Origin: a virus
Taxonomy: Duplodnaviria; Heunggongvirae; Uroviricota; Caudoviricetes
Direction: 5' to 3' (one strand)
DNA: 64,000 nt
Virus record (IMG/VR): IMGVR_UViG_3300026382_000007
Below the pieces are notes generated by a model. It was given only the letters and a program-made list of their open reading frames with translations, did not search any database and was not told the origin of the DNA. Both the position numbers and the translations under genes were made by a program. Position 1 is the stretch's first letter, and each line of letters opens with the position of its first letter. Below are positions 49,738 through 62,625 of the stretch, one piece after another.

Positions 49738-49942
49738 GTAGTCCTTTCAGTCAAGGGCTTCTTTAAGTCCTTGATTCTACGAAAAGACTCAAGAGTTTGC
49801 ACACAGTAACCGAATTAATCGGGCTGTCAGTGTATCAACTCGTCATTTTCCTCAAATCATATTCTTATAAGAAGCCTTGCCTACAATAGAACTATCTAGT
49901 TTTCCACGGTTTAGGGAATTCCGCTCAAAAATTCCAGGTAAT

Positions 49943-50026
49943 GGGTTTTCAAAGTCGTTCGGATACGGCAGCAAGACTGTAAATCTTGTCTCTAGGGGAG
50001 TGGTTCGAGTCCACGGGAACCCACCA
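49943..50026 (+). tRNA. tRNA-Tyr(GTA), type II, CCA encoded
   Basis: acceptor gggtttt/ggaaccc, anticodon arm caaga-ctGTAaa-tcttg, T-loop ttcgagt. Confidence 0.7.
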
Positions 50027-50032
50027 TTACAT

Positions 50033-50109
50033 CTGGATATAGCTCAGTTTGGGAGAGCACTTGCTTTGGGAGCAAGGGGTCGTAGGTTCAATCCCTACTA
50101 TTCAGACCA
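50033..50109 (+). tRNA. tRNA-Pro(TGG), CCA encoded
   Basis: acceptor ctggata/tattcag, D gctc-agtttggga-gagc, anticodon loop ttTGGga. Confidence 0.7.
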
Positions 50110-50116
50110 TTTTTAT

Positions 50117-50190
50117 TGAGGTATAGTTCAACGGCAGAACATGCGACTTTGACTCGCATAATATAGGTTCGATCCCTATTACCTCATCCA
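50117..50190 (+). tRNA. tRNA-Gln(TTG), CCA encoded
   Basis: U1-A72 acceptor tgaggta/tacctca, anticodon loop ctTTGac. Confidence 0.7.
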
Positions 50191-50191
50191 T

Positions 50192-50266
50192 CCTTGGGTA
50201 GCTCAATGGTAGAGCAGTCGGTTGATAACCGGAAGAATTGTGGTTCAATTCCACTCCTGAGGACCA
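50192..50266 (+). tRNA. tRNA-Ile(GAT), CCA encoded
   Basis: acceptor ccttggg/cctgagg, anticodon loop ttGATaa. Confidence 0.65.
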
Positions 50267-50276
50267 ATACTAATAT

Positions 50277-50351
50277 ACCACGGTCGTCTAATGGTTAGGA
50301 CACCATACTTTCAATTTGGTAACCGGAGTTCAATTCTCCGTCGTGGTACCA
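50277..50351 (+). tRNA. tRNA-Glu(TTC), CCA encoded
   Basis: acceptor accacgg/tcgtggt; anticodon loop ctTTCaa (one stem mismatch). Confidence 0.6.
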
Positions 50352-50361
50352 GAATTACAAT

Positions 50362-50437
50362 GGGGTGTTAGCTCATCTGGGAGAGCACTAGGTTTGCAAC
50401 TTAGAGGTGCAGGGTTCGAGTCCCTGACACTCCACCA
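50362..50437 (+). tRNA. tRNA-Ala(TGC), CCA encoded
   Basis: acceptor ggggtgt with G3:U70, anticodon loop ttTGCaa. Confidence 0.8.
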
Positions 50438-50479
50438 ATTTATTATTCAGCATTCAGCCCATTAATAGTGGGTTAAATG

Positions 50480-50554
50480 GTGAGTATAGTACAATGGTTA
50501 GTACGGAGGGTTGTGAACCTTCTAATTCCAGTTCAATTCTGGATACTCACACCA
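50480..50554 (+). tRNA. tRNA-His(GTG), CCA encoded (G at -1 present)
   Basis: acceptor gtgagta/tactcac perfect, anticodon loop ttGTGaa, g at 50479. Confidence 0.75.
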
Positions 50555-50555
50555 T

Positions 50556-50630
50556 GGCTCGGTCGTCTAATGGTTAGGACAACTGGTTTTCGACCAGTTA
50601 ATCAGAGTTCAATTCTCTGTCGAGTCACCA
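50556..50630 (+). tRNA. tRNA-Glu(TTC) second copy (divergent), CCA encoded
   Basis: acceptor ggctcgg/tcgagtc, perfect anticodon stem actgg/ccagt, loop ttTTCga (G37 unusual). Confidence 0.55.
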
Positions 50631-50651
50631 ATTTATTTATAAGGCTATGAC

Positions 50652-51125
50652 ATGAAAGATATGTATATGGAAGATGTTGGCAGTTTGTCAAGTGAAACAT
50701 GTGATTTTATATCTGAAAAGCTGAAACAATTTAACACACGGCTGACTGATGAACAAGTTAAGGATCTCGTTGAGAACCAAATTTGGGACGCAGTTTTTGA
50801 AAAACTAGAAAACTTTTGTGACAATGATTACAGAAGTCAAATGGGATAAGGGGGTAATGCTGAAAAGCAACATCGTGGAGGAAGAAGTAACGGTCAATAT
50901 GTTAATGACAGTTTCGGCGAAAAAGTATTTCTTCAATCTTCTTACGAACTATTATGTTCCGAGATACTGAACGAAATGGGCATATTATGGGTTAGACCAA
51001 AATCACTTCCATATGAGATAGATGGTAAAAAGAGAAAATACTTCCCTGATTTTCTCCTAGTGGATTATGGTATCTATTTAGATCCCAAAAATGATTTTTT
51101 GATTAAAAAGATATTCCTAAAATAA
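50652..51125 (+). pseudogene. Vsr/DUF559-like PD-(D/E)XK endonuclease (homing-endonuclease-like), interrupted by in-frame TAA at 50847
   Basis: ORF 50652-50849 continues in same frame after stop; downstream segment ..YEIDGKKRKYFPDFLLVDYGIYLDPK resembles Vsr motif PGRPDFVFP. Confidence 0.4.
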
Positions 51126-51194
51126 GAGCAGTAGAAGAACAAAATGATGTTTCCGTATTCATTTTATCGAAACAAAACATAACAACAGATTTCA

Positions 51195-51270
51195 TGGCGA
51201 GTATCATAATGGCTAATGACACCACCTCATAAGTGGTTCTATGCTGGTTCAAATCCAGTCTCGCCAACCA
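51195..51270 (+). tRNA. tRNA-Met/Ile2(CAT), canonical cloverleaf, CCA encoded
   Basis: acceptor tggcgag/ctcgcca, anticodon arm accac-ctCATaa-gtggt. Confidence 0.7.
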
Positions 51271-51286
51271 AACCAAAAACAAACAT

Positions 51287-51357
51287 GCCAACCGATCAGG
51301 GATCAGTCAGTGCTCATAACACAGACCAGCTTAGATCGTTACTAAGGGTTGGCACCA
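51287..51357 (+). tRNA. atypical tRNA-like (CAT) with reduced D-arm and A54..T58 T-loop (atcgtta)
   Basis: acceptor gccaacc/ggttggc + CCA; anticodon loop ctCATaa; only ~14 nt between acceptor and anticodon stem. Confidence 0.4.
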
Positions 51358-51360
51358 AAT

Positions 51361-51434
51361 GCGGACATAGTATAAAGGGATTATGGCGGTCTTCCAAACC
51401 GTGGATGCGAGTTCGAGCCTCGCTGTCCGCTCCA
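51361..51434 (+). tRNA. tRNA-Gly(TCC), CCA encoded
   Basis: acceptor gcggaca/tgtccgc, anticodon arm gcggt-ctTCCaa-accgt. Confidence 0.65.
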
Positions 51435-51439
51435 AACAT

Positions 51440-51514
51440 ACTCGGTTATTTCAGTGGTAGAATGTCTCCCTTACAAGGAGGAGGTCGTTGGTTCGAGTCC
51501 AACACCGAGTACCA
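51440..51514 (+). tRNA. tRNA-Val(TAC), CCA encoded
   Basis: acceptor actcggt/accgagt, anticodon loop ctTACaa. Confidence 0.65.
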
Positions 51515-51528
51515 AACACAACAAACAT

Positions 51529-51604
51529 GCTCTTCTAGCTTATGTGGTACAAGCATCGGTTTGAAGAACCGAGGATTGAAGTTCAACTCTTCAGGGGAGC
51601 ACCA
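51529..51604 (+). tRNA. tRNA-Phe(GAA), CCA encoded
   Basis: acceptor gctcttc/ggggagc, D gctt..aagc, anticodon arm tcggt-ttGAAga-accga. Confidence 0.75.
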
Positions 51605-51736
51605 TATTTTAATTATAAAGGAATTATCATGAGAGATAAGGATAATAGAAAAATCACACAATCAAAAAAGTCGTACGATCGCAAGAAAGTACAAAAACAT
51701 CGTTGGCAGGATTAACATTCAATTAATCCAAAATAT

Positions 51737-51811
51737 ATGCATGTAGCTCAGAGGCAGAGCAATGGTCTCCAAAACCATAGGTCGAGATTTCGAAATTCTC
51801 CATGTATGCCA
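51737..51811 (+). tRNA. tRNA-Trp(CCA), CCA encoded
   Basis: A1-U72 acceptor atgcatg/catgtat, discriminator G, anticodon arm atggt-ctCCAaa-accat. Confidence 0.7.
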
Positions 51812-51813
51812 AT

Positions 51814-51885
51814 GCCCAAACTGACGGATTCAGACTCGAGGTTTCGACCCTTGATGTCAAGGTTCAACTCCTTGTTTGGGCTCCA
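51814..51885 (+). tRNA. tRNA-Arg(TCG)-like with short non-canonical D-arm, CCA encoded
   Basis: acceptor gcccaaa/tttgggc perfect; anticodon arm cgagg-ttTCGac-ccttg; D region only 16 nt. Confidence 0.5.
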
Positions 51886-51979
51886 CTTCAATTTACACAA
51901 TCAAAAACAAACTCAATTATCATCATTAAATATCGTCATAATATACAAAGTTCCCTGAGAAAACTCATAACTAAAATTT

Positions 51980-52005
51980 AAGAAAACTCCTGTATAATAG
52001 TAATG
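51980..52005 (+). promoter_or_regulatory. extended -10 promoter (TGnTATAAT)
   Basis: ctcctgTATAATag at 51991-51998 upstream of 52037 gene. Confidence 0.4.
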
Positions 52006-52036
52006 TTTATAACAGGATTTCCGAACAGAGGCGAAT

Positions 52037-52219
52037 ATGACAATTAAGTTCATACACAATAGAAAAACAGTTTTAGAATACACGGTTGCTAACTTAAGCG
52101 ATCCAATTGTTCCAAAAAAACACGACCAACTAGATATTGATGGTCAAAACATGGTTATTGTTGATTTTTCAGCATTCCAAGATTTAGTAGTATTCAAGGT
52201 GGAAACATGCGAAAAATAA
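52037..52219 (+). CDS. hypothetical small protein
   Basis: 60 aa; upstream TGnTATAAT promoter at 51991-51998. Confidence 0.35.
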   Translation: MTIKFIHNRKTVLEYTVANLSDPIVPKKHDQLDIDGQNMVIVDFSAFQDLVVFKVETCEK

Positions 52220-52683
52220 CACACATAATAGTTCATGAAAGTGACTCAGGATGGGGTGATGCCTCGGCTATAAATAGTTGGCATTTAGATAGAGGCTGGA
52301 ATGGTATTGGATATCACAAGGTTATCTTGAACGGAAAAAGAACCTCAAAATCAAAATATAAAGAGTCTGAAGATGGTATCATTGAGTGTGGTAGGATGCT
52401 ACATTTGAGTGGTGCTCATGCAAGAGGTTATAACAAACAATCAATTGGATTGTGTCTGATCGGAAAACATGGTAAATTCACGAGCTTACAAATGAGTACT
52501 TTAATGGATGAAATAGTCAGGCTAATGGGTGCTTATGATATCCCTACATCGAATGTATTGGGCCACTATGAAATTCCTCTTAGTGGTGGAAAAACTTGTC
52601 CGGAAATTGATATGATGATTTTCAGAAATGAATTGCAAATGAGACTTGATGCTCTTGATGCAATGAACAAATTTGGAGCATAA
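52207..52683 (+). CDS. N-acetylmuramoyl-L-alanine amidase (T7 lysozyme / PGRP family) - candidate endolysin
   Basis: IIVHESD..GYHKVI..GAHARGYNKQSIGLCLIG..HYEI..KTCPE aligns with T7 lysozyme zinc ligands and catalytic residues. Confidence 0.8.
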   Translation: MRKITHIIVHESDSGWGDASAINSWHLDRGWNGIGYHKVILNGKRTSKSKYKESEDGIIECGRMLHLSGAHARGYNKQSIGLCLIGKHGKFTSLQMSTLMDEIVRLMGAYDIPTSNVLGHYEIPLSGGKTCPEIDMMIFRNELQMRLDALDAMNKFGA

Positions 52684-52684
52684 C

Positions 52685-53239
52685 ATGTTAAAAAACACAA
52701 CAATAATTATTCAAGCACATAAGGTGATTGAACCTACATTATCTCAGGCACTAGCTATTTGCCCAAATGTCATAATTTTTAATGACAAGGCGAAATTTAA
52801 ACATGATTCGGCAACAGTTGTGAGAGGAAGAGGGTTTTCTGGAAAATATGAAGATGCATATGAAATGTGTTTACCATTAGTGCAAACAGAATTTGTTTGT
52901 AGAATAAATGGTGGAGATGAGATTTTGGATCTTCAGGAGCCAACTGGTGACATTTGGCTCGCTAGATATAATAAAGATCACCCAGACCATAAAATGGACA
53001 AAGATTATTTTAAACATGCTGGTGCTTCTATTATAAGTGGTTCAGTAATAAAAACTGAAATTATGAAAGATCTTCTTGATGGGTACACTGTTGAAAATAA
53101 GGCGAAGTGGGGAAAATTTGGAAAATATTGTGGTGATATAATTTTGAATTCAGAATTCAAAATTTCACAAGCTGAGACTCAAAGCCTAGATTTCACATTC
53201 AAAATGTGGGGTTCAAGAGAAAATTCATATAAAGTATAA
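52685..53239 (+). CDS. hypothetical protein
   Basis: RBS ggagcataacATG. Confidence 0.35.
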   Translation: MLKNTTIIIQAHKVIEPTLSQALAICPNVIIFNDKAKFKHDSATVVRGRGFSGKYEDAYEMCLPLVQTEFVCRINGGDEILDLQEPTGDIWLARYNKDHPDHKMDKDYFKHAGASIISGSVIKTEIMKDLLDGYTVENKAKWGKFGKYCGDIILNSEFKISQAETQSLDFTFKMWGSRENSYKV

Positions 53240-53466
53240 GAATTTTGTAATTCTTTTTGTGAAAAGGGGGTTTTGCTCCCTTCAACCATTAAATAGAAGT
53301 ATAAATAACAACAAGGAACTAAGATGAAGTCTGATAAAAGACCCACTTTAAGCTGTAATTTGAATTCGCTGAATTCGGATATGATTAAACTTTAGTTCAC
53401 CCTCTATCTCAGGGTGAACATTCACTCTGGGAGCAATTTTTAAATTCCCCCAAATTTCTTATCAAT

Positions 53467-53512
53467 CTTAAGTAAGCTCTAAGCTAACTTTAGGTATAAT
53501 ATACTATATGAA
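53467..53512 (+). promoter_or_regulatory. conserved promoter cassette (no obvious CDS downstream)
   Basis: aagtaagctctaagctaactttaggTATAATatactatatg; -10 53495-53500. Confidence 0.5.
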
Positions 53513-53563
53513 AAGTAAATGGTTATTCCGCTTCTTTTTATCGTTCTTTAAAGTTTATATGAT

Positions 53564-53608
53564 CTTTAAGCTGACTCTAAGTTAGTTTACGGTATAATAT
53601 AGGTAACG
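53564..53608 (+). promoter_or_regulatory. conserved promoter cassette copy (ctgactctaagttagtttacgg form) 1 of 3
   Basis: tttaagctgactctaagttagtttacggTATAATataggt; -10 53593-53598. Confidence 0.5.
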
Positions 53609-53679
53609 AAAGTTAAGTAACACGAATGAAGATTACAAAGGTTTATTTACCTTTGACTTAACTTTTAAATCTATCAAAG

Positions 53680-53724
53680 CTTTAAGCTGACTCTAAGTTA
53701 GTTTACGGTATAATATAGGTATCT
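53680..53724 (+). promoter_or_regulatory. conserved promoter cassette copy 2 of 3 (identical 38-mer)
   Basis: -10 53709-53714. Confidence 0.5.
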
Positions 53725-53863
53725 TAATAAGATGATAAGGTTTGTAAGGTGACTAAAGAGGTTCGAATCCTCCCTTGATTTTCAAGAGATTTTAAATGTT
53801 GGAAAAGTTGCCTCAACTCAGGTTCGAATCCTGACATTTTATTAAGTTTCAAATCTTTCAAAA

Positions 53864-53908
53864 CTTTAAGCTGACTCTAAGTTAGTTTACGGTATAATAT
53901 AGGATAAA
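53864..53908 (+). promoter_or_regulatory. conserved promoter cassette copy 3 of 3 driving GC-rich noncoding region
   Basis: -10 53893-53898. Confidence 0.5.
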
Positions 53909-54280
53909 CTCTTTAATCAGGGCATCGATAAGCGGTCTAAGTCTTTTGACTGTGACCGCAACACGGTGTCTTTATTAAAGAGTTTAGTGTTTAGCTGACA
54001 CGACACTCTGAGTTTTGAAGTCAGAACCTTGGGAATGTAGCATAGAGGTAAATGTAACTGCCGTGGAGGCAGAGAAGAGGGATCGTTACCCTCCTTTCTC
54101 TACAAGGGTTTTGAGTGAAAAATGTTGATCTTTTCGAGCACACTAGTCACTGCTCGAAAACTCAACATGAACGAATAGAAAGTCACTGTGCTGGGATCAC
54201 CTGGATTTCAGTGAAACTTCTAACCGAGTTTGCAAGGTAGCACCTTGCGACTCAATGAATTACGAAATTTATTATATGAT

Positions 54281-54325
54281 TAAGCTTCTTTTAAGGAAGT
54301 TTACAGTATAATAACGGTAACTTAA
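54281..54325 (+). promoter_or_regulatory. promoter variant inside noncoding region
   Basis: aagcttcttttaaggaagtttacagTATAATaacggtaactt; -10 54307-54312. Confidence 0.4.
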
Positions 54326-55805
54326 AAGGAAACTATAAGAACTTCATTAAGTTCATATCGGCATCCAGGGATAGTGTCTACTGCAAAGTATCGGCATCCG
54401 TGGCTAGTGTTTATGAATTTAATGAAGTGCTTAGTACATAATGTCTGGCTTGGTTGTAGGTTTGCCCTATGTCAACGAAGACAAAGTGGAACGGGATTTC
54501 CGGACGCATATATTCGTAAAGATACTCTCAGTAATGGGACGAAAGGGGGATTGATAATCCTTCGCGGAAGTAATTCCGAACAAGTATGCAAAACAGAAAA
54601 CTCATTAAGACATCATCACGGTGGTGTTCGAATTGAACGATGAAGTACGAACTAAACAGTCTGGCCAACGGTGACACTGTTTGATCCCGCAAGGATCTAG
54701 TACATGCAAAATTCATAAGAAATGACAAGTTTAATCTGTAGTTCATTGGTCCGAGTCGTAACTGGCAAGGGCTTATGTTCAGTCTACATGAAAAAAGTCG
54801 CAAGGCTGAGTATCGTGATGGACGGTGAAAGTAGTGTGTTGCATGAAATCACAAAAGGTGGGAAGCATTCTGAGGCTCAAAAGGCTTTGGAACTTCTGAG
54901 GGAGCCCATCTTTATCAATCCGTAATAGCTTAAAGATAAGCATTTGTATTTGGCACAAAAGATTCAGGGTCATACCTGATTACTAATAAAAAACGCAAAG
55001 TCTCCCTCACCGTCACTTGAAAGTGGCTTAAGTCTACACCCATAATGTGGGAATGAAGACATGTTGATGCTCGCAAGGCGGATATATGTTTAGTGGAAAG
55101 CAAAGTTATCCGGCTCGCACTGGAGAATGGCTCGCAAGGTCAGACTGAGTAGAACATTAGAGTAGAGTGACGGGATGCAAGAAAAGCTACTTGTTGGCGA
55201 AAGCCTAAACAAAAGCAGTCATTGGAAATACTCGACCGAAAGGATGAGTGGATAACACTGGGAAACAATAATCCAGTCAAAGGTTCCAGCTGAAAGCTAT
55301 AATCTCAGGCTTCAAAATAAACTTTAAGAGTTTATTGAAATAAATTTGTGTAGCAGTGTTCGACTCCCGACCCACACAGAGTGGGTATTAAACGGGCAAC
55401 TGTTATTGGCACTGGTGTGGGATCACGAGGATTATGAAAAGAATAATCGCAAATTTATTTCAATAAGTTCTTAATTTACTCAAAATGAAGAATGGAATGT
55501 AGGCTTATCAAGTTGAAAGTGTGAGAACTGGATGTGGAATTGGCTTATGAAACTAGAAGAAATTGTTTCTAACGAAAGTACGGATGAATGAATGAATATG
55601 AGATGCAAATTGGGTTTACCAGATAATTCTCTCCGGAACTCTTAGTAGAAAAGAACATCACTGAGGTTGTATATTCAGTGATTGACTTTCAAACTTTTAT
55701 TATATGCTTTGAATGGGTCAGAAGATAATGATGGAGGGTGCGCACCTGAAGTCAGTGATGATATGACAAATCACTTTGAAAATGATAATATTTAAGTTTT
55801 CAGAA

Positions 55806-55837
55806 GTGGTGAGGTTCGATCCCTCACCTTTGCACCA
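55806..55837 (+). ncRNA. tRNA 3'-half-like element (T-arm + acceptor 3' strand + CCA) with no matching 5' half nearby
   Basis: tgagg-ttcgatc-cctca then cctttgc-a-cca; no gcaaagg-type 5' partner found within 100 nt. Confidence 0.3.
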
Positions 55838-55851
55838 ACAAATTTTAAATG

Positions 55852-55924
55852 TGCGGGGAACAGCGGATGTAATTTGGGCTCATAACCCAGACCCTGTGGG
55901 TTCAACTCCCACCCACCGCAACCA
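55852..55924 (+). tRNA. atypical initiator-like tRNA(CAT) with reduced D-arm
   Basis: anticodon stem with three consecutive G-C pairs (ttggg/cccag), loop ctCATaa, T-arm gtggg-ttcaact-cccac, CCA; acceptor tgcgggg/caccgca with one mismatch. Confidence 0.4.
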
Positions 55925-55929
55925 AATAT

Positions 55930-56006
55930 TGTATACGATTTCTCCAGGCGAGAAAGCTTGACTGTTAATCAAGAAGTGACTGGTTCGAGTCCAGTGTATA
56001 CAGCCA
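55930..56006 (+). tRNA. tRNA-Asn(GTT), CCA encoded
   Basis: acceptor tgtatac/gtataca perfect, D tttc..gaaa, anticodon arm cttga-ctGTTaa-tcaag. Confidence 0.75.
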
Positions 56007-56021
56007 AACAACTTAAATTTA

Positions 56022-56101
56022 AGAACTCTGTCCTTGATCGGGATTAATATGGTACGAGCGGAAATGATCATCCGTGGACTGTTCGACTCAGTCGAGTTCT
56101 T
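56022..56101 (+). ncRNA. tRNA-like element, 80 nt, no CCA, fold unresolved
   Basis: perfect 7-bp acceptor agaactc/gagttct and T-arm gactg-ttcgact-cagtc; internal arms not assignable by eye. Confidence 0.3.
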
Positions 56102-56350
56102 AAATTTGGGTTGATTACCTGAAGAGTCGCTATTGTTTTCGACTCAAAAAATACACAAACACGATAGTAAGTGATCGATACACACCACTGTTGGCATATC
56201 GCACAGACGATGCAGCGAGTTCCGGCTACACAGGGCAGAGGGAAACATCTAGAAGGTTTCATCGCAATTGTACATTGTGCGATTAACAAACTAAAATGAG
56301 CAAAAACTCGACCCACTTAAAGATTTAATCAATCTCGGGTCGTTTCAAGT

Positions 56351-56427
56351 GGCCTACTAACTCAATTGGCTAGAGTGTCTCGTTGTCTGCGAGAAGGTTA
56401 TCGGTTCGAGTCCGATGTGGGTCGCCA
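56351..56427 (+). tRNA. tRNA-Asp(GTC), CCA encoded (U37 unusual)
   Basis: acceptor ggcctac/gtgggtc, D actc..gagt, anticodon arm tctcg-ttGTCtg-cgaga. Confidence 0.55.
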
Positions 56428-56935
56428 TTTTCAAAATTGAATAAAGTAACTAACTAGAGTGGGAATGCTTGGATTGAGTTCTAGCACATACCTTAATAAT
56501 GTTCTCGCATCCTTGATTTAGCGATCACGGGACAAGTACACATGCTCCTCTATGATACAATATGCATCACTTGTATCATAAATGTTTGTTATTTTATTCA
56601 GTCTTGCAAGAATAAACTGAAGTGTCGGAATATCAAGAACTGCACTATAAAGTACGATTATCTGGTGAGATGCATACTGCTGAACCTACTCTAAAAGGGT
56701 TATGGCACCAATGGAAGATCATTCTGGACGGCTCCAGACACAGACTTGAAATCTGTAGGCATTTTAAAAGCAGTGTGGGGATCGACACCTCGTTCTTCCT
56801 CCATTTTAAATATAAACATAAGGAAATACAATGAAAACGACAAAATTAACGAAAACGACAAAACTTACAGACACATCTGAAAGAGATAGTTAGGTAAAAC
56901 TAGCTATGGGGTGTGTCTTTAATAAAAATAAAGAT

Positions 56936-57010
56936 GCATCCGAAGCTTAGTTGGCGAAGCACACGACTTTTAATCGTGGGAACAGAGTTCGATTCTCTGC
57001 GGTTGCACCA
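56936..57010 (+). tRNA. tRNA-Lys(TTT), CCA encoded
   Basis: acceptor gcatccg/cggttgc (one mismatch), anticodon arm cacga-ctTTTaa-tcgtg. Confidence 0.65.
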
Positions 57011-57018
57011 TTCAATGT

Positions 57019-57094
57019 GGATGTGTAACTCAATTGGCAGAGTACTCGGCTTTTAACCGAGAGGTTGTGGGATCATTGCCCACCGCATCCACCA
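57019..57094 (+). tRNA. tRNA-Lys(TTT) second divergent copy with A54..T58 T-loop (atcattg)
   Basis: acceptor ggatgtg/cgcatcc, anticodon arm ctcgg-ctTTTaa-ccgag. Confidence 0.55.
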
Positions 57095-57095
57095 T

Positions 57096-57170
57096 GCTTA
57101 ATTAGTATAGTGGCGATTATCCTCGTTTTGTAATCGAGGGACAGGTGTTCGATTCACCTATTAAGCTCCA
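57096..57170 (+). tRNA. tRNA-Thr(TGT), CCA encoded
   Basis: acceptor gcttaat/attaagc perfect; anticodon loop ttTGTaa; weak D-stem. Confidence 0.55.
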
Positions 57171-57182
57171 AATTTTTAAAAT

Positions 57183-57259
57183 GCCGGATTAGCTCCAACT
57201 GGAAGAGCATTTCACTTGTAATGAAAGGGCTATCTGTTCGAATCAGATATCCGGCACCA
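57183..57259 (+). tRNA. tRNA-Thr(TGT) second copy, CCA encoded
   Basis: acceptor gccggat/atccggc perfect, D gctc..gagc, anticodon arm tttca-ctTGTaa-tgaaa. Confidence 0.7.
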
Positions 57260-57744
57260 TTTATAGTATAAAGAACATTTTGGTGATTTTTGTACTGTTA
57301 AATGTTCACACTAAATCAAAAACAATGGTAGGGTAAATGAGTATGCATGCTTCCGCTCATCAGTCCAGAAAATTGAGAAGTGTAAAAAGGTCTATTGTAG
57401 CCTCAGAACCTTGAAAGGGAGAGGGAATATGCCTTGGAGATATCCAAAAGCTTTTTGGCGAAAATTTGTGCAAAACAAAATCCGCTCCAATCAACTCAAT
57501 TATATACAAGGGATTTTATAACAGTCACCTGATCTTGTATATAATTGAGCGGATTTCGACCTAAATGATTGCCTCCGACTTCAACAAGACAAAGGCTCAA
57601 GAAAATCATTTGTTAGGGTTGTGCCCATCTTACACGGTTCTTGTTCCGGTGTAGGCTCTGGGGAACTCTCTGAGTCGTCCGCTCCAACAAACGACTGCCC
57701 TCTATTTGAACTTATTGTAAGGTCATTCAACGGTGGTTTTTTAT

Positions 57745-57831
57745 GCTTCTCTGGTGGAATTGGTATACACGGTGGTCTTAGAAACCACTGCTCGAAAGGG
57801 CTTCCGAGTTCGAGTCTCGGGGGAAGCACCA
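57745..57831 (+). tRNA. tRNA-Leu(TAG), type II, CCA encoded
   Basis: acceptor gcttctc/gggaagc, anticodon arm gtggt-ctTAGaa-accac, variable hairpin gctc-gaaa-gggc. Confidence 0.7.
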
Positions 57832-57865
57832 TAATTTTTATTATAAACTAAAACAAGGAAGGCAA

Positions 57866-57979
57866 ATGTCGCACATAAATGCAAAAATTGCTGAACTTGA
57901 GAAAGACGGTAAACGAGAAAACATAGATTTTCGTATAGTATATTTTTCAGAATCAGCAGAATTAAAAATGTTGAAATAA
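57866..57979 (+). CDS. small protein (37 aa), below the ORF-track cutoff
   Basis: RBS aaggaaggcaaATG; MSHINAKIAELEKDGKRENIDFRIVYFSESAELKMLK. Confidence 0.25.
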   Translation: MSHINAKIAELEKDGKRENIDFRIVYFSESAELKMLK

Positions 57980-58103
57980 CAAAATTCAAAAAAGGAGTCA
58001 CGAATGTTGACAAGGTTAAGATCATTATCAAGATGTTTATGTTTAAGATTATTGTCAATTCGTGATGGATTGAGTTGTAGCTAAACTGCTATAATTTCAA
58101 TTC

Positions 58104-58189
58104 GGATAGTGCAAGCAAGGTGCTTAAGGTGGTTGCTAACCACTGGGGTGTAAACAGCCTGATGGGTTCAATTCCCATACTATCCTCCA
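58104..58189 (+). tRNA. tRNA-Ser(GCT), type II, CCA encoded
   Basis: acceptor ggatagt/actatcc perfect, anticodon arm ggtgg-ttGCTaa-ccact, long variable arm. Confidence 0.65.
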
Positions 58190-58280
58190 TCTTCAATTAG
58201 TACATTCAGTACAACCTTCAAAAACACAAACACTTTATTATTCATTCACAAATTTACTTGGTTATTCAAGCAACACATAT

Positions 58281-58367
58281 GCTCTCATGGTGGAATTGGC
58301 ATACACAATGGACTTAAAATCCATGGCTCGGAAGGGCTTCTCGGTTCAAATCCGAGTGGGAGCACCA
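58281..58367 (+). tRNA. tRNA-Leu(TAA), type II, CCA encoded (no intron)
   Basis: acceptor gctctca/tgggagc, anticodon arm atgga-ctTAAaa-tccat, variable hairpin gctc-ggaa-gggc. Confidence 0.7.
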
Positions 58368-58381
58368 TACTAAACAAATGT

Positions 58382-58457
58382 GCCGATGTACTTCAACGGA
58401 TAGAAATTCCGACTTCTAATCGGAAAGTTGGGGGTTCAAGCCCCTCCATCGGTACCA
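58382..58457 (+). tRNA. tRNA-Arg(TCT), CCA encoded
   Basis: acceptor gccgatg/catcggt, anticodon arm tccga-ctTCTaa-tcgga. Confidence 0.65.
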
Positions 58458-58458
58458 T

Positions 58459-58533
58459 GTATGATTGGCCAAATGGTAAGGCACGGGATTGCAAATCCTG
58501 AGATTGTCAGTTCGAGTCTGACATCATGCTCCA
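58459..58533 (+). tRNA. tRNA-Cys(GCA), CCA encoded
   Basis: acceptor gtatgat/atcatgc, anticodon arm cggga-ttGCAaa-tcctg. Confidence 0.65.
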
Positions 58534-58567: not shown

Positions 58568-59095
58568 ATGAACAAATTAGAATTCAATGAAGAAAACTTC
58601 GACATGTTAGTCGAGAGGATGCACTTCCTCAGGGAAGAAGTTAAAAAATACAAATATGACCATTTAACTGGTTTAAAACTCAGAAAAGATTTTGATGAGA
58701 AGCTTGATAGGATGTATGAAGCTTATGAATTTGAAGATCAACCATTTGTTTTCATTATGGCAGATGCTGATGGTCTACACAATACTAATAGGACTCTAGG
58801 TTATGATGCTGGTGATGAGCTTCTTATAACTATATCGAGTGAGCTCCGTGCGGAGTTCGGTGATTGTAGAAATGTTGATATATTTCGAATATCCGGCGAC
58901 GAATTTGCGGTTTTGATGACTGGTGATTTGTGTGGCGATGCAATTGACGAAAAAATGAAAAATGTCACAAGTTGCTCATATGCATCAGTCTTCATGGATG
59001 AGACTGAATGTCATCCAAGCCCATCATCTGTTTTTAAGTGTGCTGATAAAAAACTCACTGAAGTAAAGAAAACTAAAAAGCCTGAAAGAATTTAA
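58568..59095 (+). CDS. GGDEF-domain protein (diguanylate-cyclase-like, SGDEF variant)
   Basis: DHLTGL, FVFIMADADGLHNTNRTLGYDAGDELL and RISGDEFAVLM align with PleD-type GGDEF core (DQLTGL / LIDIDFFKKIND..GDEVL / RYGGEEFVVIM). Confidence 0.65.
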   Translation: MNKLEFNEENFDMLVERMHFLREEVKKYKYDHLTGLKLRKDFDEKLDRMYEAYEFEDQPFVFIMADADGLHNTNRTLGYDAGDELLITISSELRAEFGDCRNVDIFRISGDEFAVLMTGDLCGDAIDEKMKNVTSCSYASVFMDETECHPSPSSVFKCADKKLTEVKKTKKPERI

Positions 59096-59858: not shown

Positions 59859-60137
59859 ATGAGACCACTCGGATTTAAAGTAATTATAGAAAAGAAAACG
59901 GTGCAAGCGGAACAAACTTCCGGAACACTTATTATTGAACTTGAAAAGTCAACTTCAGATGCTGACGATGTTAGTGAGGGAACTGTAATTTCAGTAGGAA
60001 ATGAAGTAAACTCTGTGATACATATGATAGATGTTGGTGATACCGTGAAATATGAAAATCATGGTGGGTATGAAGTGAATATTGACGGTAAAGACCTGAT
60101 TATAGCTGATATCAAAAACATTCTGGTGGTATTATAA
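59859..60137 (+). CDS. groES: co-chaperonin GroES/gp31-like
   Basis: 92 aa; MRPLGFKVIIEK..GTVISVG..VGDTVKY pattern parallels GroES; immediately upstream of GroEL with ATGA overlap. Confidence 0.6.
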   Translation: MRPLGFKVIIEKKTVQAEQTSGTLIIELEKSTSDADDVSEGTVISVGNEVNSVIHMIDVGDTVKYENHGGYEVNIDGKDLIIADIKNILVVL

Positions 60138-61717: not shown

Positions 61718-61771
61718 GCAAGCTCTAAGCTTGTTTTAGGTATAATATAGTATAACTAAAAAGGATTCATT
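61714..61771 (+). promoter_or_regulatory. conserved promoter/leader cassette
   Basis: aagcaagctctaagcttgttttaggTATAATatagtataactaaaaaggattcattATG; -10 61741-61746. Confidence 0.55.
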
Positions 61772-61885: not shown

Positions 61886-62625
61886 ACGAATATGGGAGTG
61901 GTGCTAATGGAGAGAGGCTGAAATGCTCGGGTTGCACCAGATGGCAAACTTAGATTACTCACGATTGAGCAAGGATAAGACCTGACTATTGGTATGTTAG
62001 GGGATAATCATGTTAGTGTTGGAAATAAGTGTACATGAGTTGGACAACTAACCATCAACTGCGAAGACAGTATAAACTCGGGTGGCACGAGATGTGAGAG
62101 TAACACTGTGCCGTACAATTAATAAACTACTGAGGGCAACGGGACTCAGCATGACTCGGTGAGCGAGCAGTTCTTTATGGGTGTACTTGATATCAGTGCA
62201 CAGCGGAAGCTTATGAAGTGGGCTTCCCCACAGAAATGTGTTTTACAATCGTTGCTTCGGGTTACACACCACTGCGTCCAGTCGACCCTAGATGGTCAAA
62301 AGTGACTGTGTCTGAAGCACATTTATCCTCGATTGGTATAATTGGTTATTACTACTTATATGGCAGAGAAGCCAACATCCAAGATTTTAGCGGATCATGG
62401 TAGCAGTTGAAGAGGCGAAGTAGATTTGTTGGTGAATGTGAAATAACACCAACTTTTTGAAAAGCACAAAGGCTTGAAGTTCTAGCATAAGGTGCTAAAT
62501 TGCTGAGTTCTATCTCAATTCACAGCGGATAGAATAGGTTTAAAAATGACAAGCGGAAGACAGCAAATAAGGTGATTGTGGTTCGAGTCCACGGTTGGGG
62601 GCCAAATTTAATATAAAGAAGAATA

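What the first reader, a model, noticed from the sequence alone, without database searches (positions are those of the whole stretch)
49943..58533. Near-complete phage tRNA array of about 28 genes, all with genomically encoded CCA
Anticodons read by eye are Tyr, Pro, Gln, Ile, Glu x2, Ala (with G3:U70), His (with G-1), Met(CAT), Gly, Val, Phe, Trp, Arg(TCG), Asn, Asp, Lys x2, Thr x2, Leu(TAG), Ser(GCT), Leu(TAA), Arg(TCT) and Cys, plus two atypical CAT species. Only Ser(TGA) appears to be missing from a minimal set. Every gene carries CCA, which is unusual for many bacterial tRNA genes and makes the set independent of host CCA-adding enzyme. Several genes are separated by only 1-8 nt, which implies polycistronic precursors that need RNase P/Z processing.
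Basis: seen in the sequence. Interest (0 to 1): 0.6.

Follow-up and report, generated by a model that had tools for sequence, protein, structure and literature searches.

The report
Phage tRNA island containing GOLLD RNA

Summary
ARAGORN finds 26 tRNA genes at exactly 49943-58533, all on the + strand and none elsewhere in the window. Spacers within blocks are 1-14 nt.

Corrections:
- Ser(TGA) is not missing. It lies at 56713-56803, ends in CCA, and has a selenocysteine-like shape that default tools skip. All 20 amino acids and, by wobble rules, all codon boxes are covered.
- The region is three blocks of tRNA genes (14, 8 and 5), not one array.
- A 4-kb insert separates blocks 1 and 2. It holds three protein genes, five tandem phage promoter repeats, an unclassified 376-nt structured RNA, and a full-length GOLLD RNA (Rfam 224 bits) with an embedded pseudo-tRNA.
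- Encoded CCA is a lineage trait, not a peculiarity. Other GOLLD-linked phage arrays show 26/27 or 0/21.
- CCA argues against RNase Z processing.

tRNA islands with GOLLD, an embedded pseudo-tRNA and 8/4 serine tRNAs are all published. This is a new member of a known kind. The likely host lineage is Sulfurimonas-like (weak evidence). Function (supplying tRNAs during infection) is inferred, not shown.

The parts
49463..49494 (+). Phage promoter-like motif (AAGnnnnnTnTAAGnnnnnTTAYRGTATAATA) upstream of tRNA block 1
   Evidence: The motif has 9 sites in the window against 0 expected. A position weight matrix built from them finds 19 sites, 18 on the + strand. The site is conserved in the relative L152.
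49495..49942 (+). Structured leader between the promoter and the first tRNA; it contains a 43-aa ORF (49606-49737) with a Shine-Dalgarno sequence
   Evidence: Folding z-score -5.5, with 0 of 100 shuffles as stable. It is about 98% identical in L152, whose adjacent cytochrome-like protein is only 75% identical. The ORF differs by 2 synonymous changes and 1 conservative change.
49943..50026 (+). tRNA-Tyr(GTA), class II, CCA
   Evidence: ARAGORN; CCA; identical in L152; no Rfam tRNA hit.
50033..50109 (+). tRNA-Pro(TGG), CCA
   Evidence: Rfam 64.0 bits; CCA.
50117..50190 (+). tRNA-Gln(TTG), CCA
   Evidence: Rfam 65.9 bits; CCA.
50192..50266 (+). tRNA-Ile(GAT), CCA; 1 nt after Gln
   Evidence: Rfam 56.6 bits; CCA and spacing.
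50277..50351 (+). tRNA-Glu(TTC) copy 1, CCA
   Evidence: Rfam 58.6 bits; 77% identical to copy 2.
50362..50437 (+). tRNA-Ala(TGC) with G3:U70, CCA
   Evidence: Rfam 60.6 bits; sequence read.
50480..50554 (+). tRNA-His(GTG), CCA; G at -1 (50479) and discriminator A73
   Evidence: Rfam 63.4 bits. The -1 G is also present in L145 and L090, which have C73.
50556..50630 (+). tRNA-Glu(TTC) copy 2, CCA; 1 nt after His
   Evidence: Rfam 59.8 bits.
50976..51125 (+). Possible remnant of an endonuclease gene in the 564-nt gap within block 1 (weak)
   Evidence: PHROG 'endonuclease' at E 0.005 only; the upstream ORF is in a different frame.
51195..51270 (+). tRNA(CAT), canonical; elongator Met or Ile2, not resolved; CCA
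   Evidence: Rfam 55.1 bits; folds as a cloverleaf.
   Evidence: The minimum-free-energy fold is cloverleaf-like, z -3.3, 0 of 200 shuffles as stable. ARAGORN does not call it even at relaxed thresholds, and Rfam has no hit at E<=10.
51361..51434 (+). tRNA-Gly(TCC), CCA
   Evidence: Rfam 59.8 bits.
51440..51514 (+). tRNA-Val(TAC), CCA
   Evidence: Rfam 65.0 bits.
51529..51604 (+). tRNA-Phe(GAA), CCA
   Evidence: Rfam 52.9 bits.
51737..51811 (+). tRNA-Trp(CCA), CCA end
   Evidence: Rfam 57.1 bits.
51814..51885 (+). tRNA-Arg(TCG), 72 nt, weak D arm, CCA; 2 nt after Trp
   Evidence: Rfam 30.3 bits, just above the gathering score of 29; drawn.
52037..53239 (+). Three protein genes that interrupt the tRNA region (60 aa, N-acetylmuramoyl-L-alanine amidase, 188 aa of unknown function)
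   Evidence: ORFs; Pfam Amidase_2; also called as genes on the source contig.
53470..53899 (+). Four tandem copies of the phage promoter motif (53470-53501, 53568-53599, 53684-53715, 53868-53899), each followed by a short non-coding unit
   Evidence: Direct-repeat families D1 and D6; motif searches. The number of units differs in the close relative L153.
53906..54281 (+). Unclassified 376-nt structured RNA ('u4') with its own promoter; contains a tRNA-like element at 54031-54101 without CCA
   Evidence: Folding z -7.85. The only Rfam hit is a weak tRNA match at 31.6 bits. Against L153, 53986-54281 is 292/295 identical, and the hairpin 53906-53985 keeps pairing through 5 double changes.
54282..54313 (+). 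Fifth tandem promoter motif, directly upstream of GOLLD
54320..55311 (+). GOLLD RNA: the conserved 3' domain at 54853-55311 plus the 5' domain. The start is inferred from the promoter; homology to relatives begins by about 54582.
   Evidence: Rfam RF02032 at 224 bits (gathering score 150), E 4e-62, model positions 1-416 of 416. 73-75% identity over about 700 nt to the GOLLDs of L126 and L149.
54919..54987 (+). Pseudo-tRNA embedded in the GOLLD linker (anticodon-like UUG, 5 of 7 acceptor pairs, no CCA)
   Evidence: Rfam tRNA 33 bits; ARAGORN only at relaxed threshold. Counterparts exist in L126, L149 and L090.
55810..55838 (+). Orphan T-arm hairpin followed by CCTTTGCACCA (a tRNA 3' remnant)
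   Evidence: T-arm scan; repeat family D10; no full tRNA found, even allowing introns.
55850..55924 (+). Initiator-like tRNA(CAT): 5' TGCGGGG most likely starting at 55852, GGG/CCC in the anticodon stem, aberrant D arm, CCA
   Evidence: ARAGORN; Rfam 29.8 bits; drawn. Its aligned counterpart in L126 (9157-9231) scores 65.6 bits.
55930..56006 (+). tRNA-Asn(GTT), atypical D arm, CCA
   Evidence: Rfam 32.5 bits.
56351..56427 (+). tRNA-Asp(GTC), CCA
   Evidence: Rfam 51.6 bits.
   Evidence: Rfam tRNA-Sec model 43.9 bits (gathering score 47), E 2.5e-6. ARAGORN calls Ser(tga) at -ps90. Fold.
56936..57010 (+). tRNA-Lys(TTT) copy 1, CCA
   Evidence: Rfam 57.7 bits.
57019..57094 (+). tRNA-Lys(TTT) copy 2, CCA
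   Evidence: Rfam 61.3 bits.
57096..57170 (+). tRNA-Thr(TGT) copy 1, CCA; 1 nt after Lys
   Evidence: Rfam 53.2 bits.
57183..57259 (+). tRNA-Thr(TGT) copy 2, CCA
   Evidence: Rfam 60.2 bits.
57745..57831 (+). tRNA-Leu(TAG), class II, CCA
   Evidence: Rfam 51.5 bits.
58104..58189 (+). tRNA-Ser(GCT), class II, CCA
   Evidence: ARAGORN default; no Rfam tRNA hit, and only 18.6 bits on the Sec model.
58281..58367 (+). tRNA-Leu(TAA), class II, CCA
   Evidence: Rfam 55.0 bits.
58382..58457 (+). tRNA-Arg(TCT), CCA
   Evidence: Rfam 57.0 bits.
58459..58533 (+). tRNA-Cys(GCA), CCA; 1 nt after Arg
   Evidence: Rfam 62.6 bits.

Best explanation
The region is the non-coding RNA island of an uncultivated large phage whose source contig is about 155 kb.

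Contents:
- 27 tRNA genes in three same-strand blocks, every one ending in an encoded CCA.
- The anticodons form a minimal full decoding set: U34 in all eight four-codon boxes, G34 or U34 in the split boxes, Trp, and two or three CAT species. One CAT species is initiator-like.
- A GOLLD RNA of about 830-990 nt with a tRNA-like insert lies between blocks 1 and 2, behind a run of five phage promoters.

Inferred mechanism:
- Host RNA polymerase starts at the phage promoters, at 49463 for block 1 and at 53470-54313 for the small RNAs and GOLLD. No promoter motif lies in or between blocks 2 and 3, so read-through from the GOLLD promoter probably supplies them.
- The long precursors are cut by host RNase P at each tRNA 5' end. 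The 1-14-nt trailers are trimmed by exonucleases back to the encoded CCA.
- The mature tRNAs then keep phage translation going during infection, whatever happens to the host tRNA pool.

GOLLD is made from the same island and probably forms the RNA-only 14-mer cage described for the family; what it does is unknown.

Shown here: the genes, their anticodons and ends, the promoter motif family, the GOLLD match, and conservation in relatives. Inferred: transcription units, processing, aminoacylation, and the benefit to the phage.
For: tRNA genes:
- 26 tRNAs at default ARAGORN settings, all on the + strand and none elsewhere in the window.
- 24 of the 26 reach the Rfam gathering score.
- All end in CCA, and the spacers are 1-14 nt.
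- Ser(TGA) is recovered at 56713-56803.

GOLLD:
- 224 bits over the whole model, with an embedded tRNA-like hit.
- The related phage contigs L126 and L149 carry a homologous GOLLD, also inside tRNA arrays, 73-75% identical over about 700 nt.
- Of 119 GOLLD loci in IMG/VR, 36 have tRNAs within 3 kb, always on the same strand. L090 has 27 tRNAs (26 with CCA, 20 isotypes) around its GOLLD.

Promoters: the motif has 9 strict sites against 0 expected, and 19 PWM sites of which 18 are on the + strand. None lies inside a tRNA block.

Conservation: the leader plus tRNA-Tyr/Pro and the u4 RNA are 98-99% identical in a relative whose neighbouring proteins are 64-75% identical.

Codon use:
- Phage genes are A/T-rich at the third codon position.
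- UCN codons make up 73% of Ser codons and ATA 22% of Ile codons, so Ser(TGA) and an Ile2-type CAT tRNA would matter.
- GAA and AAA are among the three most used codons and match the duplicated Glu and Lys genes.

Literature: GOLLD near or inside tRNA islands, with tRNAs in its linker, and the nanocage structure (PMC12286853). A Mycobacterium 32-tRNA cluster with GOLLD, an embedded pseudo-tRNA and an HNH endonuclease (PMC6582537).
Against: - No expression, processing or aminoacylation data exist for this phage.
- Five members are structurally weak: Arg(TCG) 30.3 bits, Asn 32.5 bits, initiator-like 29.8 bits, Ser(TGA) below the Sec gathering score, and the 51287-51357 element with no hit at all. 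Not all may be functional.
- Reading all four codons of a box with a single U34 tRNA depends on host modification enzymes that cannot be checked here.
- Codon fractions correlate at r=0.91 with loci of the tentative host lineage, Sulfurimonas. Simple codon-bias compensation is therefore a weak motive.
- The transcription-unit model rests on motif matches only.
- Only 64 kb of a roughly 155-kb genome was examined.
Confidence: 0.85

Rival explanations
1. The main role is counter-defence rather than codon supply. A complete phage-encoded set replaces host tRNAs that are cleaved by anticodon nucleases (PrrC, VapC, colicin-like enzymes, PARIS-type systems) or that decay after host shut-off. The diverged duplicate genes offer nuclease-insensitive variants.
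For: - The set covers every amino acid rather than a few rare codons.
- Phage codon fractions resemble those of the tentative host lineage, r=0.91, which weakens the codon-compensation motive.
- The duplicates are old paralogs rather than recent copies; Glu1 and Glu2 are 77% identical.
- The hypothesis is published for phage tRNAs in general (PMC10264068).
- A kinase-like AAA_33 protein (36023-36556) and an ATP-dependent ligase (37122-38525) lie in the window. This pairing recalls the T4 tRNA-repair pair, but no test was done.
Against: - No anticodon-loop comparison with host tRNAs was possible, because no host tRNA genes were recovered.
- The two tRNA-Lys genes have the same CUUUUAA anticodon loop.
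- The host assignment is weak.
- This is not exclusive of the main explanation; it differs only in which selective pressure dominates.
Confidence: 0.35
2. A substantial part of the island is decaying. Several 'genes' are pseudo-tRNAs left over from repeated acquisition and recombination, and only a subset is functional.
For: - Orphan T-arm hairpins and 3' remnants occur at 53818, 55810 (followed by ...GCACCA) and 56077.
- tRNA-like elements without CCA occur at 54031-54101 and 54919-54987.
- Arg(TCG), Asn and the initiator-like tRNA score only 29.8-32.5 bits.
- The window's initiator-like copy has an acceptor mismatch and a 3-bp D stem, whereas its L126 counterpart scores 65.6 bits.
- The T-arm-like hairpins of unit 3 are not conserved in L153.
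- A possible endonuclease remnant lies in block 1.
Against: - 22 tRNAs score 51-66 bits.
- All 27 keep CCA, 7-nt anticodon loops and paired acceptor stems.
- The part that can be compared with a close relative is about 98% identical.
- Each weak member fills an otherwise empty codon box (CGN, AAY, UCN, initiation), which argues for retention by selection.
Confidence: 0.2
3. The region is a bacterial or mobile-element tRNA array, like the Mycobacterium chromosomal tRNA arrays, rather than part of a lytic phage genome.
For: GOLLD-containing tRNA arrays do occur in bacterial chromosomes (PMC6582537). The window also carries host-like genes: a flagellin, a GGDEF protein, GroES/EL and a cytochrome-c-like protein.
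Against: - Almost all genes are on one strand.
- Tail/adsorption-type protein families, a weak baseplate hit, endonuclease VII, ribonucleotide reductase, a ligase and dCMP deaminase are present.
- A phage-specific promoter motif is spread over the whole window.
- The relatives are IMG/VR viral contigs.
- The contig is about 155 kb and recurs in several assemblies.
Confidence: 0.04

Closest known systems
tRNA arrays of large phages: T4/T5/KVP40-type myoviruses and mycobacteriophages (from my own knowledge), and Shigella phage Sf14 with 26 tRNAs for 19 amino acids (PMC12482277, title and abstract listed)
   Same: Tight same-strand clusters of 20-35 tRNA genes with very short spacers. They are made as multi-tRNA precursors and cover most or all amino acids. 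Small ORFs and endonuclease remnants lie between the genes.
   Different: - This set is a minimal complete set with U34 in every four-codon box.
- It is split by a 4-kb insert containing GOLLD.
- There is no close sequence relative in GenBank phages.
GOLLD RNA (Rfam RF02032) in prophage or phage tRNA islands, including Mycobacterium tRNA arrays (PMC12286853; PMC6582537). Morgado et al. 2020 (PMC7549688) was seen only as a reference and not read.
   Same: - Full-length match to the conserved 3' domain.
- A variable 5' domain.
- tRNA genes on both sides on the same strand.
- A pseudo-tRNA in the linker between the first hairpin and the multistem core.
- A possible endonuclease remnant nearby.
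   Different: - Here GOLLD has its own copy of a phage promoter that is repeated five times in tandem.
- It is preceded by a separate 376-nt structured RNA.
- The host lineage (Sulfurimonas-like, tentative) differs from Lactobacillales and Mycobacterium.
(8/4) allo-type tRNA-Ser found in phage tRNA clusters (Mukai et al., PMC5389517)
   Same: A serine anticodon, a long variable arm, a 6-bp D stem with a tetraloop, an 8-bp acceptor stem with a 4-bp T stem, discriminator U73, and a location inside a phage tRNA cluster.
   Different: - The 7th acceptor pair is a U.U mismatch, so a 7/5 reading cannot be excluded.
- The accompanying tRNA-His looks canonical 7/5, has A73, and has a G at -1. The published (8/4) tRNA-His lacks G-1.
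Promoter-stem-loop cassettes (PeSLs) of T4-type phages (recalled from memory, not checked in the library)
   Same: A roughly 60-nt repeat carrying a sigma-70-type promoter is scattered at gene-module boundaries and stacked in a plastic region. The copy number differs between close relatives.
   Different: The sequence is unrelated. Here the stacked copies drive short non-coding units and GOLLD rather than early protein genes.

Membership tests
tRNA (Rfam RF00005 / ARAGORN) | Cloverleaf scoring at or above the family's gathering score (29 bits) | tested here: met
   24 of the 26 ARAGORN genes reach 29.8-65.9 bits. Tyr and Ser(GCT), both class II, are called by ARAGORN only.
tRNA (Rfam RF00005 / ARAGORN) | 7-nt anticodon loop, paired acceptor stem and a 3' CCA end | tested here: met
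   All 26 genes plus Ser(TGA) end in CCA; the structures of the odd members were drawn.
tRNA (Rfam RF00005 / ARAGORN) | Recognition of the 51287-51357 CAT element as a tRNA | tested here: not met
   No ARAGORN call even at -ps90 and no Rfam hit at E<=10. Only a thermodynamic cloverleaf-like fold supports it.
Complete decoding set | At least one tRNA for each of the 20 amino acids | tested here: met
   20 isotypes once Ser, Met and the others are counted.
Complete decoding set | Every sense-codon box readable, including UCN, CGN, CUN and AUA | tested here: inconclusive
   - An anticodon exists for every box if U34 reads all four codons, which is an inference from wobble rules.
- AUA needs one CAT tRNA to be a lysidine-modified Ile2. 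Which one that is, if any, could not be decided.
Initiator tRNA-fMet | Three consecutive G:C pairs at the bottom of the anticodon stem | tested here: met
   55850-55924 has GGG/CCC next to the CUCAUAA loop. The same is true of its L126 counterpart.
Initiator tRNA-fMet | Mismatch at positions 1:72 (C1xA72 in bacteria) | tested here: not met
   In the register supported by L126, the pair is U1-A72, a weak pair and not a mismatch.
GOLLD RNA (RF02032) | Score at or above the gathering score over the whole model | tested here: met
   224 bits against 150, model positions 1-416 of 416, not truncated.
GOLLD RNA (RF02032) | Larger RNA (>800 nt) with a less conserved 5' domain | tested here: met
   Homology to the GOLLDs of L126 and L149 extends about 270 nt or more upstream of the Rfam hit, to about 54582-54607. 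From the promoter at 54282-54313 to 55311 is about 990 nt.
GOLLD RNA (RF02032) | Phage or prophage context next to tRNA genes on the same strand | tested here: met
   In 36 of 119 IMG/VR GOLLD loci, tRNAs lie within 3 kb, all on the same strand.
GOLLD RNA (RF02032) | Assembly into a homo-oligomeric 14-mer nanocage | not testable with these tools
   Known for GOLLD env-38 by cryo-EM (PMC12286853). It needs an experiment for this sequence.
(8/4) allo-tRNA-Ser | 12-bp acceptor branch made of an 8-bp acceptor stem and a 4-bp T stem | tested here: inconclusive
   The Sec-model alignment and ARAGORN both draw 8/4. However, pair 7 is U.U, and a 7/5 fold with a U.G pair is also possible. No close homologs were available for a covariation test.
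(8/4) allo-tRNA-Ser | Long D stem with a tetraloop, long variable arm, and G73 or U73 | tested here: met
   The D arm is UCUGGA-CGGC-UCCAGA, the V arm is about 18 nt, and the discriminator is U73. The features are as listed in PMC5389517.
(8/4) allo-tRNA-Ser | Charged with serine by SerRS | not testable with these tools
   Needs an aminoacylation assay.
tmRNA | tRNA-like domain plus a tag reading frame | tested here: not met
   - No tmRNA at default ARAGORN settings or in Rfam in the window.
- Only a dubious permuted call at a relaxed threshold.
- The analogous islands L090 and L076 do carry tmRNA.

The most novel reading that the evidence does not exclude
The island may be more than a tRNA store. 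Under this reading, GOLLD with its tethered tRNA-like insert, the unclassified 376-nt RNA u4 and the tRNAs form one co-regulated phage RNA module. The GOLLD cage and/or u4 would act on tRNA biology, for example by sheltering phage tRNAs, decoying host tRNA-cleaving defence nucleases, or titrating tRNA-processing or modification enzymes.

The hint is conservation. The non-coding parts are 98-99% identical between two phages whose flanking proteins are only 64-75% identical. The variable u4 hairpin keeps its pairing through five double substitutions.
Probability: 0.1. Interest if true: 0.75.

Novelty: new member of a known kind. Interest (0 to 1): 0.3.

Why it matters
For the finding as stated, it matters little. 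Large phage tRNA arrays, encoded CCA, GOLLD inside tRNA islands and 8/4 serine tRNAs are all described.

The locus is still a useful specimen for three reasons:
- It places a full minimal decoding set, a promoter-equipped GOLLD with a pseudo-tRNA linker, and a second strongly structured RNA within 9 kb of a phage from a lineage (probably infecting Sulfurimonas-like bacteria) where none of these has been studied.
- GOLLD's function is an open question. A compact natural context with defined promoters and close relatives for comparison could help in designing experiments.
- It is a practical warning: default tRNA finders miss the Sec-like Ser(TGA), and the gene calls stored with the source contig place a spurious 138-aa ORF across four tRNA genes.

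Tried and rejected
Searches for relatives:
- GenBank phages (megablast of the island, blastn of GOLLD, tblastn of a tail protein) gave no close relative.
- The search for related loci with the GGDEF and the 188-aa neighbour proteins found nothing in IMG/VR.
- Relatives came instead from the promoter motif and from exact-protein look-ups.

Searches within the island:
- ARAGORN with introns allowed and with tmRNA mode found no split tRNA for the orphan 3' remnant at 55810, and only a dubious permuted tmRNA call.
- Folding z-scores of the spacers:
  - The leader and u4 stand out (z -6.2 and -6.9 in this run).
  - S8, u2, S1, S2 and S4 reach about -2.5 to -4 on at least one strand.
  - S10, u3 and S3 are within about 1.3 SD of shuffles on both strands, as is S5 on its + strand.
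  - The script timed out before S5 (- strand), S6 and S7 were tested.
  Two earlier scripts failed on my own shuffle code.
- BLAST of the spacers, u4, the leader and the odd tRNAs against all fetched loci found no homologs.

A suppressor idea: I asked whether GOLLD-embedded tRNAs are typically suppressors, since L149 has UUA and L090 has CUA. Only 2 of 120 pattern-matched GOLLDs have an embedded tRNA detectable by ARAGORN, which is too few for a trend.

Homology of the u4 tRNA-like element to the tRNA that precedes GOLLD in L126 and L149 was not supported by alignment.

Host inference:
- The cytochrome-c-like gene has only phage-lineage homologs.
- The flagellin points weakly to Sulfurimonas/Campylobacterota.
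- The fetched host-lineage loci contained no tRNA genes, so host CCA encoding and host anticodon loops could not be compared.

The ORF-free region at 61886-62610 gave no Rfam hit, no significant fold and no IMG/VR match to its tRNA-like 3' end.

Full report

Yes. ARAGORN at default settings finds 26 tRNA genes in the window. All are on the + strand.

Rfam's tRNA model gives 51-66 bits for 22 of them. It gives 29.8-32.5 bits for Arg(TCG), Asn(GTT) and the second CAT species, still above the gathering score of 29. Tyr and Ser(GCT), both class II tRNAs with long variable arms, are supported by ARAGORN only.

Reading the ends shows that all 26 finish in CCA. Spacers inside blocks are 1, 1, 1, 1, 2, 5, 5, 6, 7, 8, 10, 10, 12, 14 and 14 nt. 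G3:U70 in tRNA-Ala is present. A G precedes tRNA-His at -1, as it does in the tRNA-His genes of two other phage arrays. Here, however, the discriminator is A73, whereas those two have C73.

**2. Corrections to the inventory**

*Ser(TGA) is not missing.* At 56713-56803 there is a 91-nt gene with the anticodon loop CUUGAAA, discriminator U and CCA.
- Rfam's tRNA-Sec model scores it 43.9 bits (gathering score 47, E 2.5e-6).
- ARAGORN calls it tRNA-Ser(tga) once its threshold is relaxed to 90%.
- Its shape is selenocysteine-like: an 8-bp acceptor stem with one U.U mismatch, a 6-bp D stem with a tetraloop, a long variable arm and a 4-bp T stem. The anticodon, though, is a serine one.
- This matches the (8/4) tRNA-Ser that Mukai et al. 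found in tRNA clusters of uncultivated phages (PMC5389517). A canonical 7/5 fold cannot be excluded without covariation data.

*The CAT species.*
It folds alone into a cloverleaf-like structure with CAU in a 7-nt loop, a perfect 7-bp acceptor stem, A73 and CCA (z -3.3).
- The CAT species at 55850-55924 is initiator-like. It has a 5' TGCGGGG and three G:C pairs next to the anticodon loop. It aligns with a 65.6-bit tRNA at the equivalent position downstream of GOLLD in a related phage.
- Which CAT tRNA, if any, is the lysidine-type Ile2 needed for AUA could not be decided.

*Total.* There are 27 CCA-ending tRNA genes plus one tRNA-like element, covering all 20 amino acids. The anticodons form a minimal set:
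- U34 in all eight four-codon boxes;
- G34 for the pyrimidine-ending split boxes;
- U34 for the purine-ending split boxes;
- Trp and the CAT species.

By wobble rules, which is an inference and not a test, this can read every sense codon.

**3. What else is in the span**

The 'array' is three blocks: 49943-51885 (14 genes), 55850-57259 (8 genes including Ser(TGA)) and 57745-58533 (5 genes). Between blocks 1 and 2 lie the following features.

- *Three protein genes.* One is an N-acetylmuramoyl-L-alanine amidase.
- *Five tandem promoter copies.* A roughly 32-62-nt motif, AAGCTnnnTnTAAGnnAnnTTACGGTATAATA, is repeated five times at 53470-54313. It contains a sigma-70-type promoter. It occurs at 9 strict sites in the window against 0 expected. 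A position weight matrix built from those sites finds 19, of which 18 are on the + strand. One site, 49463-49494, precedes block 1. None lies within or between blocks 2 and 3.
- *An unclassified structured RNA, here called u4.* It spans 53906-54281 (376 nt) and is very stably folded (z -7.85). It has its own promoter and contains a tRNA-like element without CCA.
- *A full-length GOLLD RNA.* Rfam RF02032 scores 224 bits against a gathering score of 150 (E 4e-62), covering model positions 1-416 at 54853-55311. Its variable linker carries a pseudo-tRNA at 54919-54987 (33 bits, 5 of 7 acceptor pairs, no CCA). Homology with related GOLLDs extends upstream to about 54582-54607. With the promoter at 54282-54313, the RNA would be about 0.8-1.0 kb.

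Elsewhere in the island there are orphan T-arm hairpins and 3' remnants at 53818, 55810 (followed by ...GCACCA) and 56077. A weak endonuclease-like ORF fragment lies at 50976-51125. Several small ORFs with ribosome-binding sites are also present.

The leader at 49495-49942 is strongly structured (z -5.5). It contains a 43-aa ORF.

**4. Whose genome is it?**

The window is phage-like for these reasons:
- Nearly all genes are on one strand.
- It has a 1152-aa protein of a tail/adsorption-type family, a weak baseplate-wedge hit, ribonucleotide reductase, an ATP-dependent ligase, endonuclease VII, dCMP deaminase and GroES/GroEL.

The exact sequence lies on a 154,878-bp ENA metagenome contig (ERZ27262631:k141_170235). 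GenBank phages contain no close relative.

The promoter motif pulled out related IMG/VR contigs. One of them, IMGVR_UViG_3300028490_000012 (loci L126, L143, L145), shares the ligase and ribonucleotide reductase at 68-77% nucleotide identity. It carries a homologous GOLLD inside its own tRNA array. A metagenome contig, L149, does the same.

A closer relative from assembly ERZ27262635 (loci L152, L153) is about 98% identical over the leader and tRNA-Tyr/Pro, and 292/295 identical over most of u4. Its adjacent proteins are only 75% and 64% identical.

In the one variable u4 hairpin (53906-53985, 62/80 identical), pairing is kept through five double substitutions and two one-sided changes (two more one-sided changes lie elsewhere in u4), with two pairs broken. 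Two sequences are a thin sample, but the pattern is what a functional RNA helix would show. Recent recombination of the RNA island between phages would also explain the high identity.

*Host.* The phage-encoded flagellin (45013-45837, - strand) has its best named and genome hits in Sulfurimonas/Campylobacterota at 43-53% identity. G+C content is similar: 37.3% for the window against 35.7% for the Sulfurimonas loci. This is a weak lead, not an assignment.

**5. How it most likely works**

*Shown:* the gene content, the ends, the motif family and the conservation.

*Inferred:*
- Host RNA polymerase starts at the phage promoters.
- Block 1 is one precursor from 49463. The small units and GOLLD have their own starts. 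Blocks 2 and 3 have no promoter motif and are probably reached by read-through from the GOLLD promoter.
- Spacers of 1-14 nt mean that RNase P cleavage at one tRNA's 5' end leaves a very short trailer on the previous tRNA.
- A 3' CCA blocks RNase Z (established knowledge from E. coli and B. subtilis).

*Codon use of 47 phage ORFs:*
- Third positions are A/T-rich (T 41%, A 30%).
- UCN codons make up 73% of Ser codons and ATA 22% of Ile codons.
- GAA and AAA are the second and third most used codons, matching the duplicated Glu(TTC) and Lys(TTT) genes.

Within-family codon fractions correlate at r=0.91 with the Sulfurimonas loci. If that is the host lineage, plain codon-bias compensation is a weak motive. 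A complete set then fits better with keeping translation independent of a host tRNA pool that is degraded or attacked, as proposed in PMC10264068. I could not test this, because no host tRNA genes were recovered.

GOLLD's role is unknown. Published work shows a 14-mer RNA cage. It also notes that phage tRNAs sometimes sit in the GOLLD linker (PMC12286853).

**6. Comparison with what is known**

Every component has precedent.
- Large phage tRNA arrays are common, for example Sf14 with 26 tRNAs (PMC12482277).
- GOLLD is described as 'often near tRNA islands'.
- A Mycobacterium 32-tRNA cluster contains GOLLD, a pseudo-tRNA inside it and an HNH endonuclease (PMC6582537).

In my own survey of 119 IMG/VR GOLLD loci, 36 have tRNAs within 3 kb, always on the same strand. 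Locus L090 is a near twin in design: 27 tRNAs, 26 with CCA, 20 isotypes, GOLLD with an embedded tRNA, plus a tmRNA.

Encoded CCA is all-or-none by lineage: 26/27 and 16/18 against 0/21 and 1/19. It therefore reflects ancestry or host type rather than a special adaptation.

The window differs from the published cases in three ways: the stacked promoter copies in front of GOLLD, the separate u4 RNA, and the probable host lineage.

**7. Verdict**

The finding is a new member of a known kind, of modest interest (0.3).

The most novel reading not excluded is that GOLLD, u4 and the tRNAs form one functional RNA module acting on tRNA biology. It rests only on co-location and unusually high conservation, and I give it about 10%.

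Noticed in passing
   Followed up: yes
window 53906-54281: An unclassified 376-nt RNA ('u4') folds very stably (z -7.85), has its own promoter and matches no Rfam family. Against the relative L153 it is 292/295 identical over its 3' part. Its first hairpin carries 5 compensatory double changes.
   Followed up: partly
window 53470-54313, plus 14 other sites (e.g. 29784, 37060, 43008, 48581, 49463, 59094, 61716, 63471): A phage promoter motif family, AAGCTnnnTnTAAGnnAnnTTACGGTATAATA, has 19 sites, 18 of them on the + strand. Five are stacked in tandem in front of GOLLD. The copy number differs in a close relative, which resembles the mobile promoter cassettes of T4-type phages.
   Followed up: partly
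window 49495-49942: The 448-nt leader before the first tRNA is strongly structured (z -5.5) and holds a conserved 43-aa ORF (49606-49737). It is about 98% identical in L152, although the neighbouring protein is only 75% identical.
   Followed up: partly
window 61886-62610: A stretch of about 725 nt has no plausible ORF. It follows a promoter motif (61716-61747) and a 37-aa ORF, and its G+C is 43% against 37% for the window. It ends in a T-arm hairpin plus GTTGGGGGCCA, a tRNA-like 3' end. It has no Rfam hit, no significant fold and no IMG/VR match. Unexplained.
   Followed up: partly
window 45013-45837 (- strand): The phage encodes a flagellin (Pfam Flagellin_N/C) and is one of very few minus-strand genes. 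Many 60-77% identical homologs exist in metagenomes. The best named hits are Sulfurimonas/Campylobacterota, which suggests the host lineage.
   Followed up: partly
window 49189-49458, 58568-59095, 59859-61717: Host-like accessory genes flank the island: a small CxxCH cytochrome-c-like protein with homologs only in this phage lineage, a truncated GGDEF-domain protein, and a GroES/GroEL pair.
   Followed up: partly
window 51216-51632: A 138-aa ORF runs across tRNA(CAT), Gly, Val and Phe. It is listed as a called gene on the source contig (L150 12028-12444) and is almost certainly spurious.
   Followed up: no
window 36023-36556 and 37122-38525: An AAA_33/zeta-toxin-like kinase lies near an ATP-dependent ligase. 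This pairing recalls the T4 polynucleotide kinase and RNA ligase used to repair tRNAs, but no specific test was done.
   Followed up: no
L126 10038-10663 and 7371-7443: In the related phage contig, four 'Leu' tRNAs (taa, tag, caa, aag) are only 75-78 nt long and a 'Ser(cga)' is 73 nt. They have class I length with class II anticodons, which is odd for Leu and Ser tRNAs.
   Followed up: no
L149 2509-2581; L090 5866-5937; window 54919-54987: GOLLD-embedded tRNA-like inserts carry the anticodons UUA (L149), CUA (L090, 58.6 bits) and UUG (window), that is, stop-codon-reading or Gln-type. Only 2 of 120 pattern-matched GOLLD loci have such an insert detectable by ARAGORN, so no trend can be claimed.
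   Followed up: partly
L090 9602-9987; L076 332-706: Two other GOLLD-containing phage tRNA islands also encode a tmRNA (79-82 bits). The window has none.
   Followed up: no
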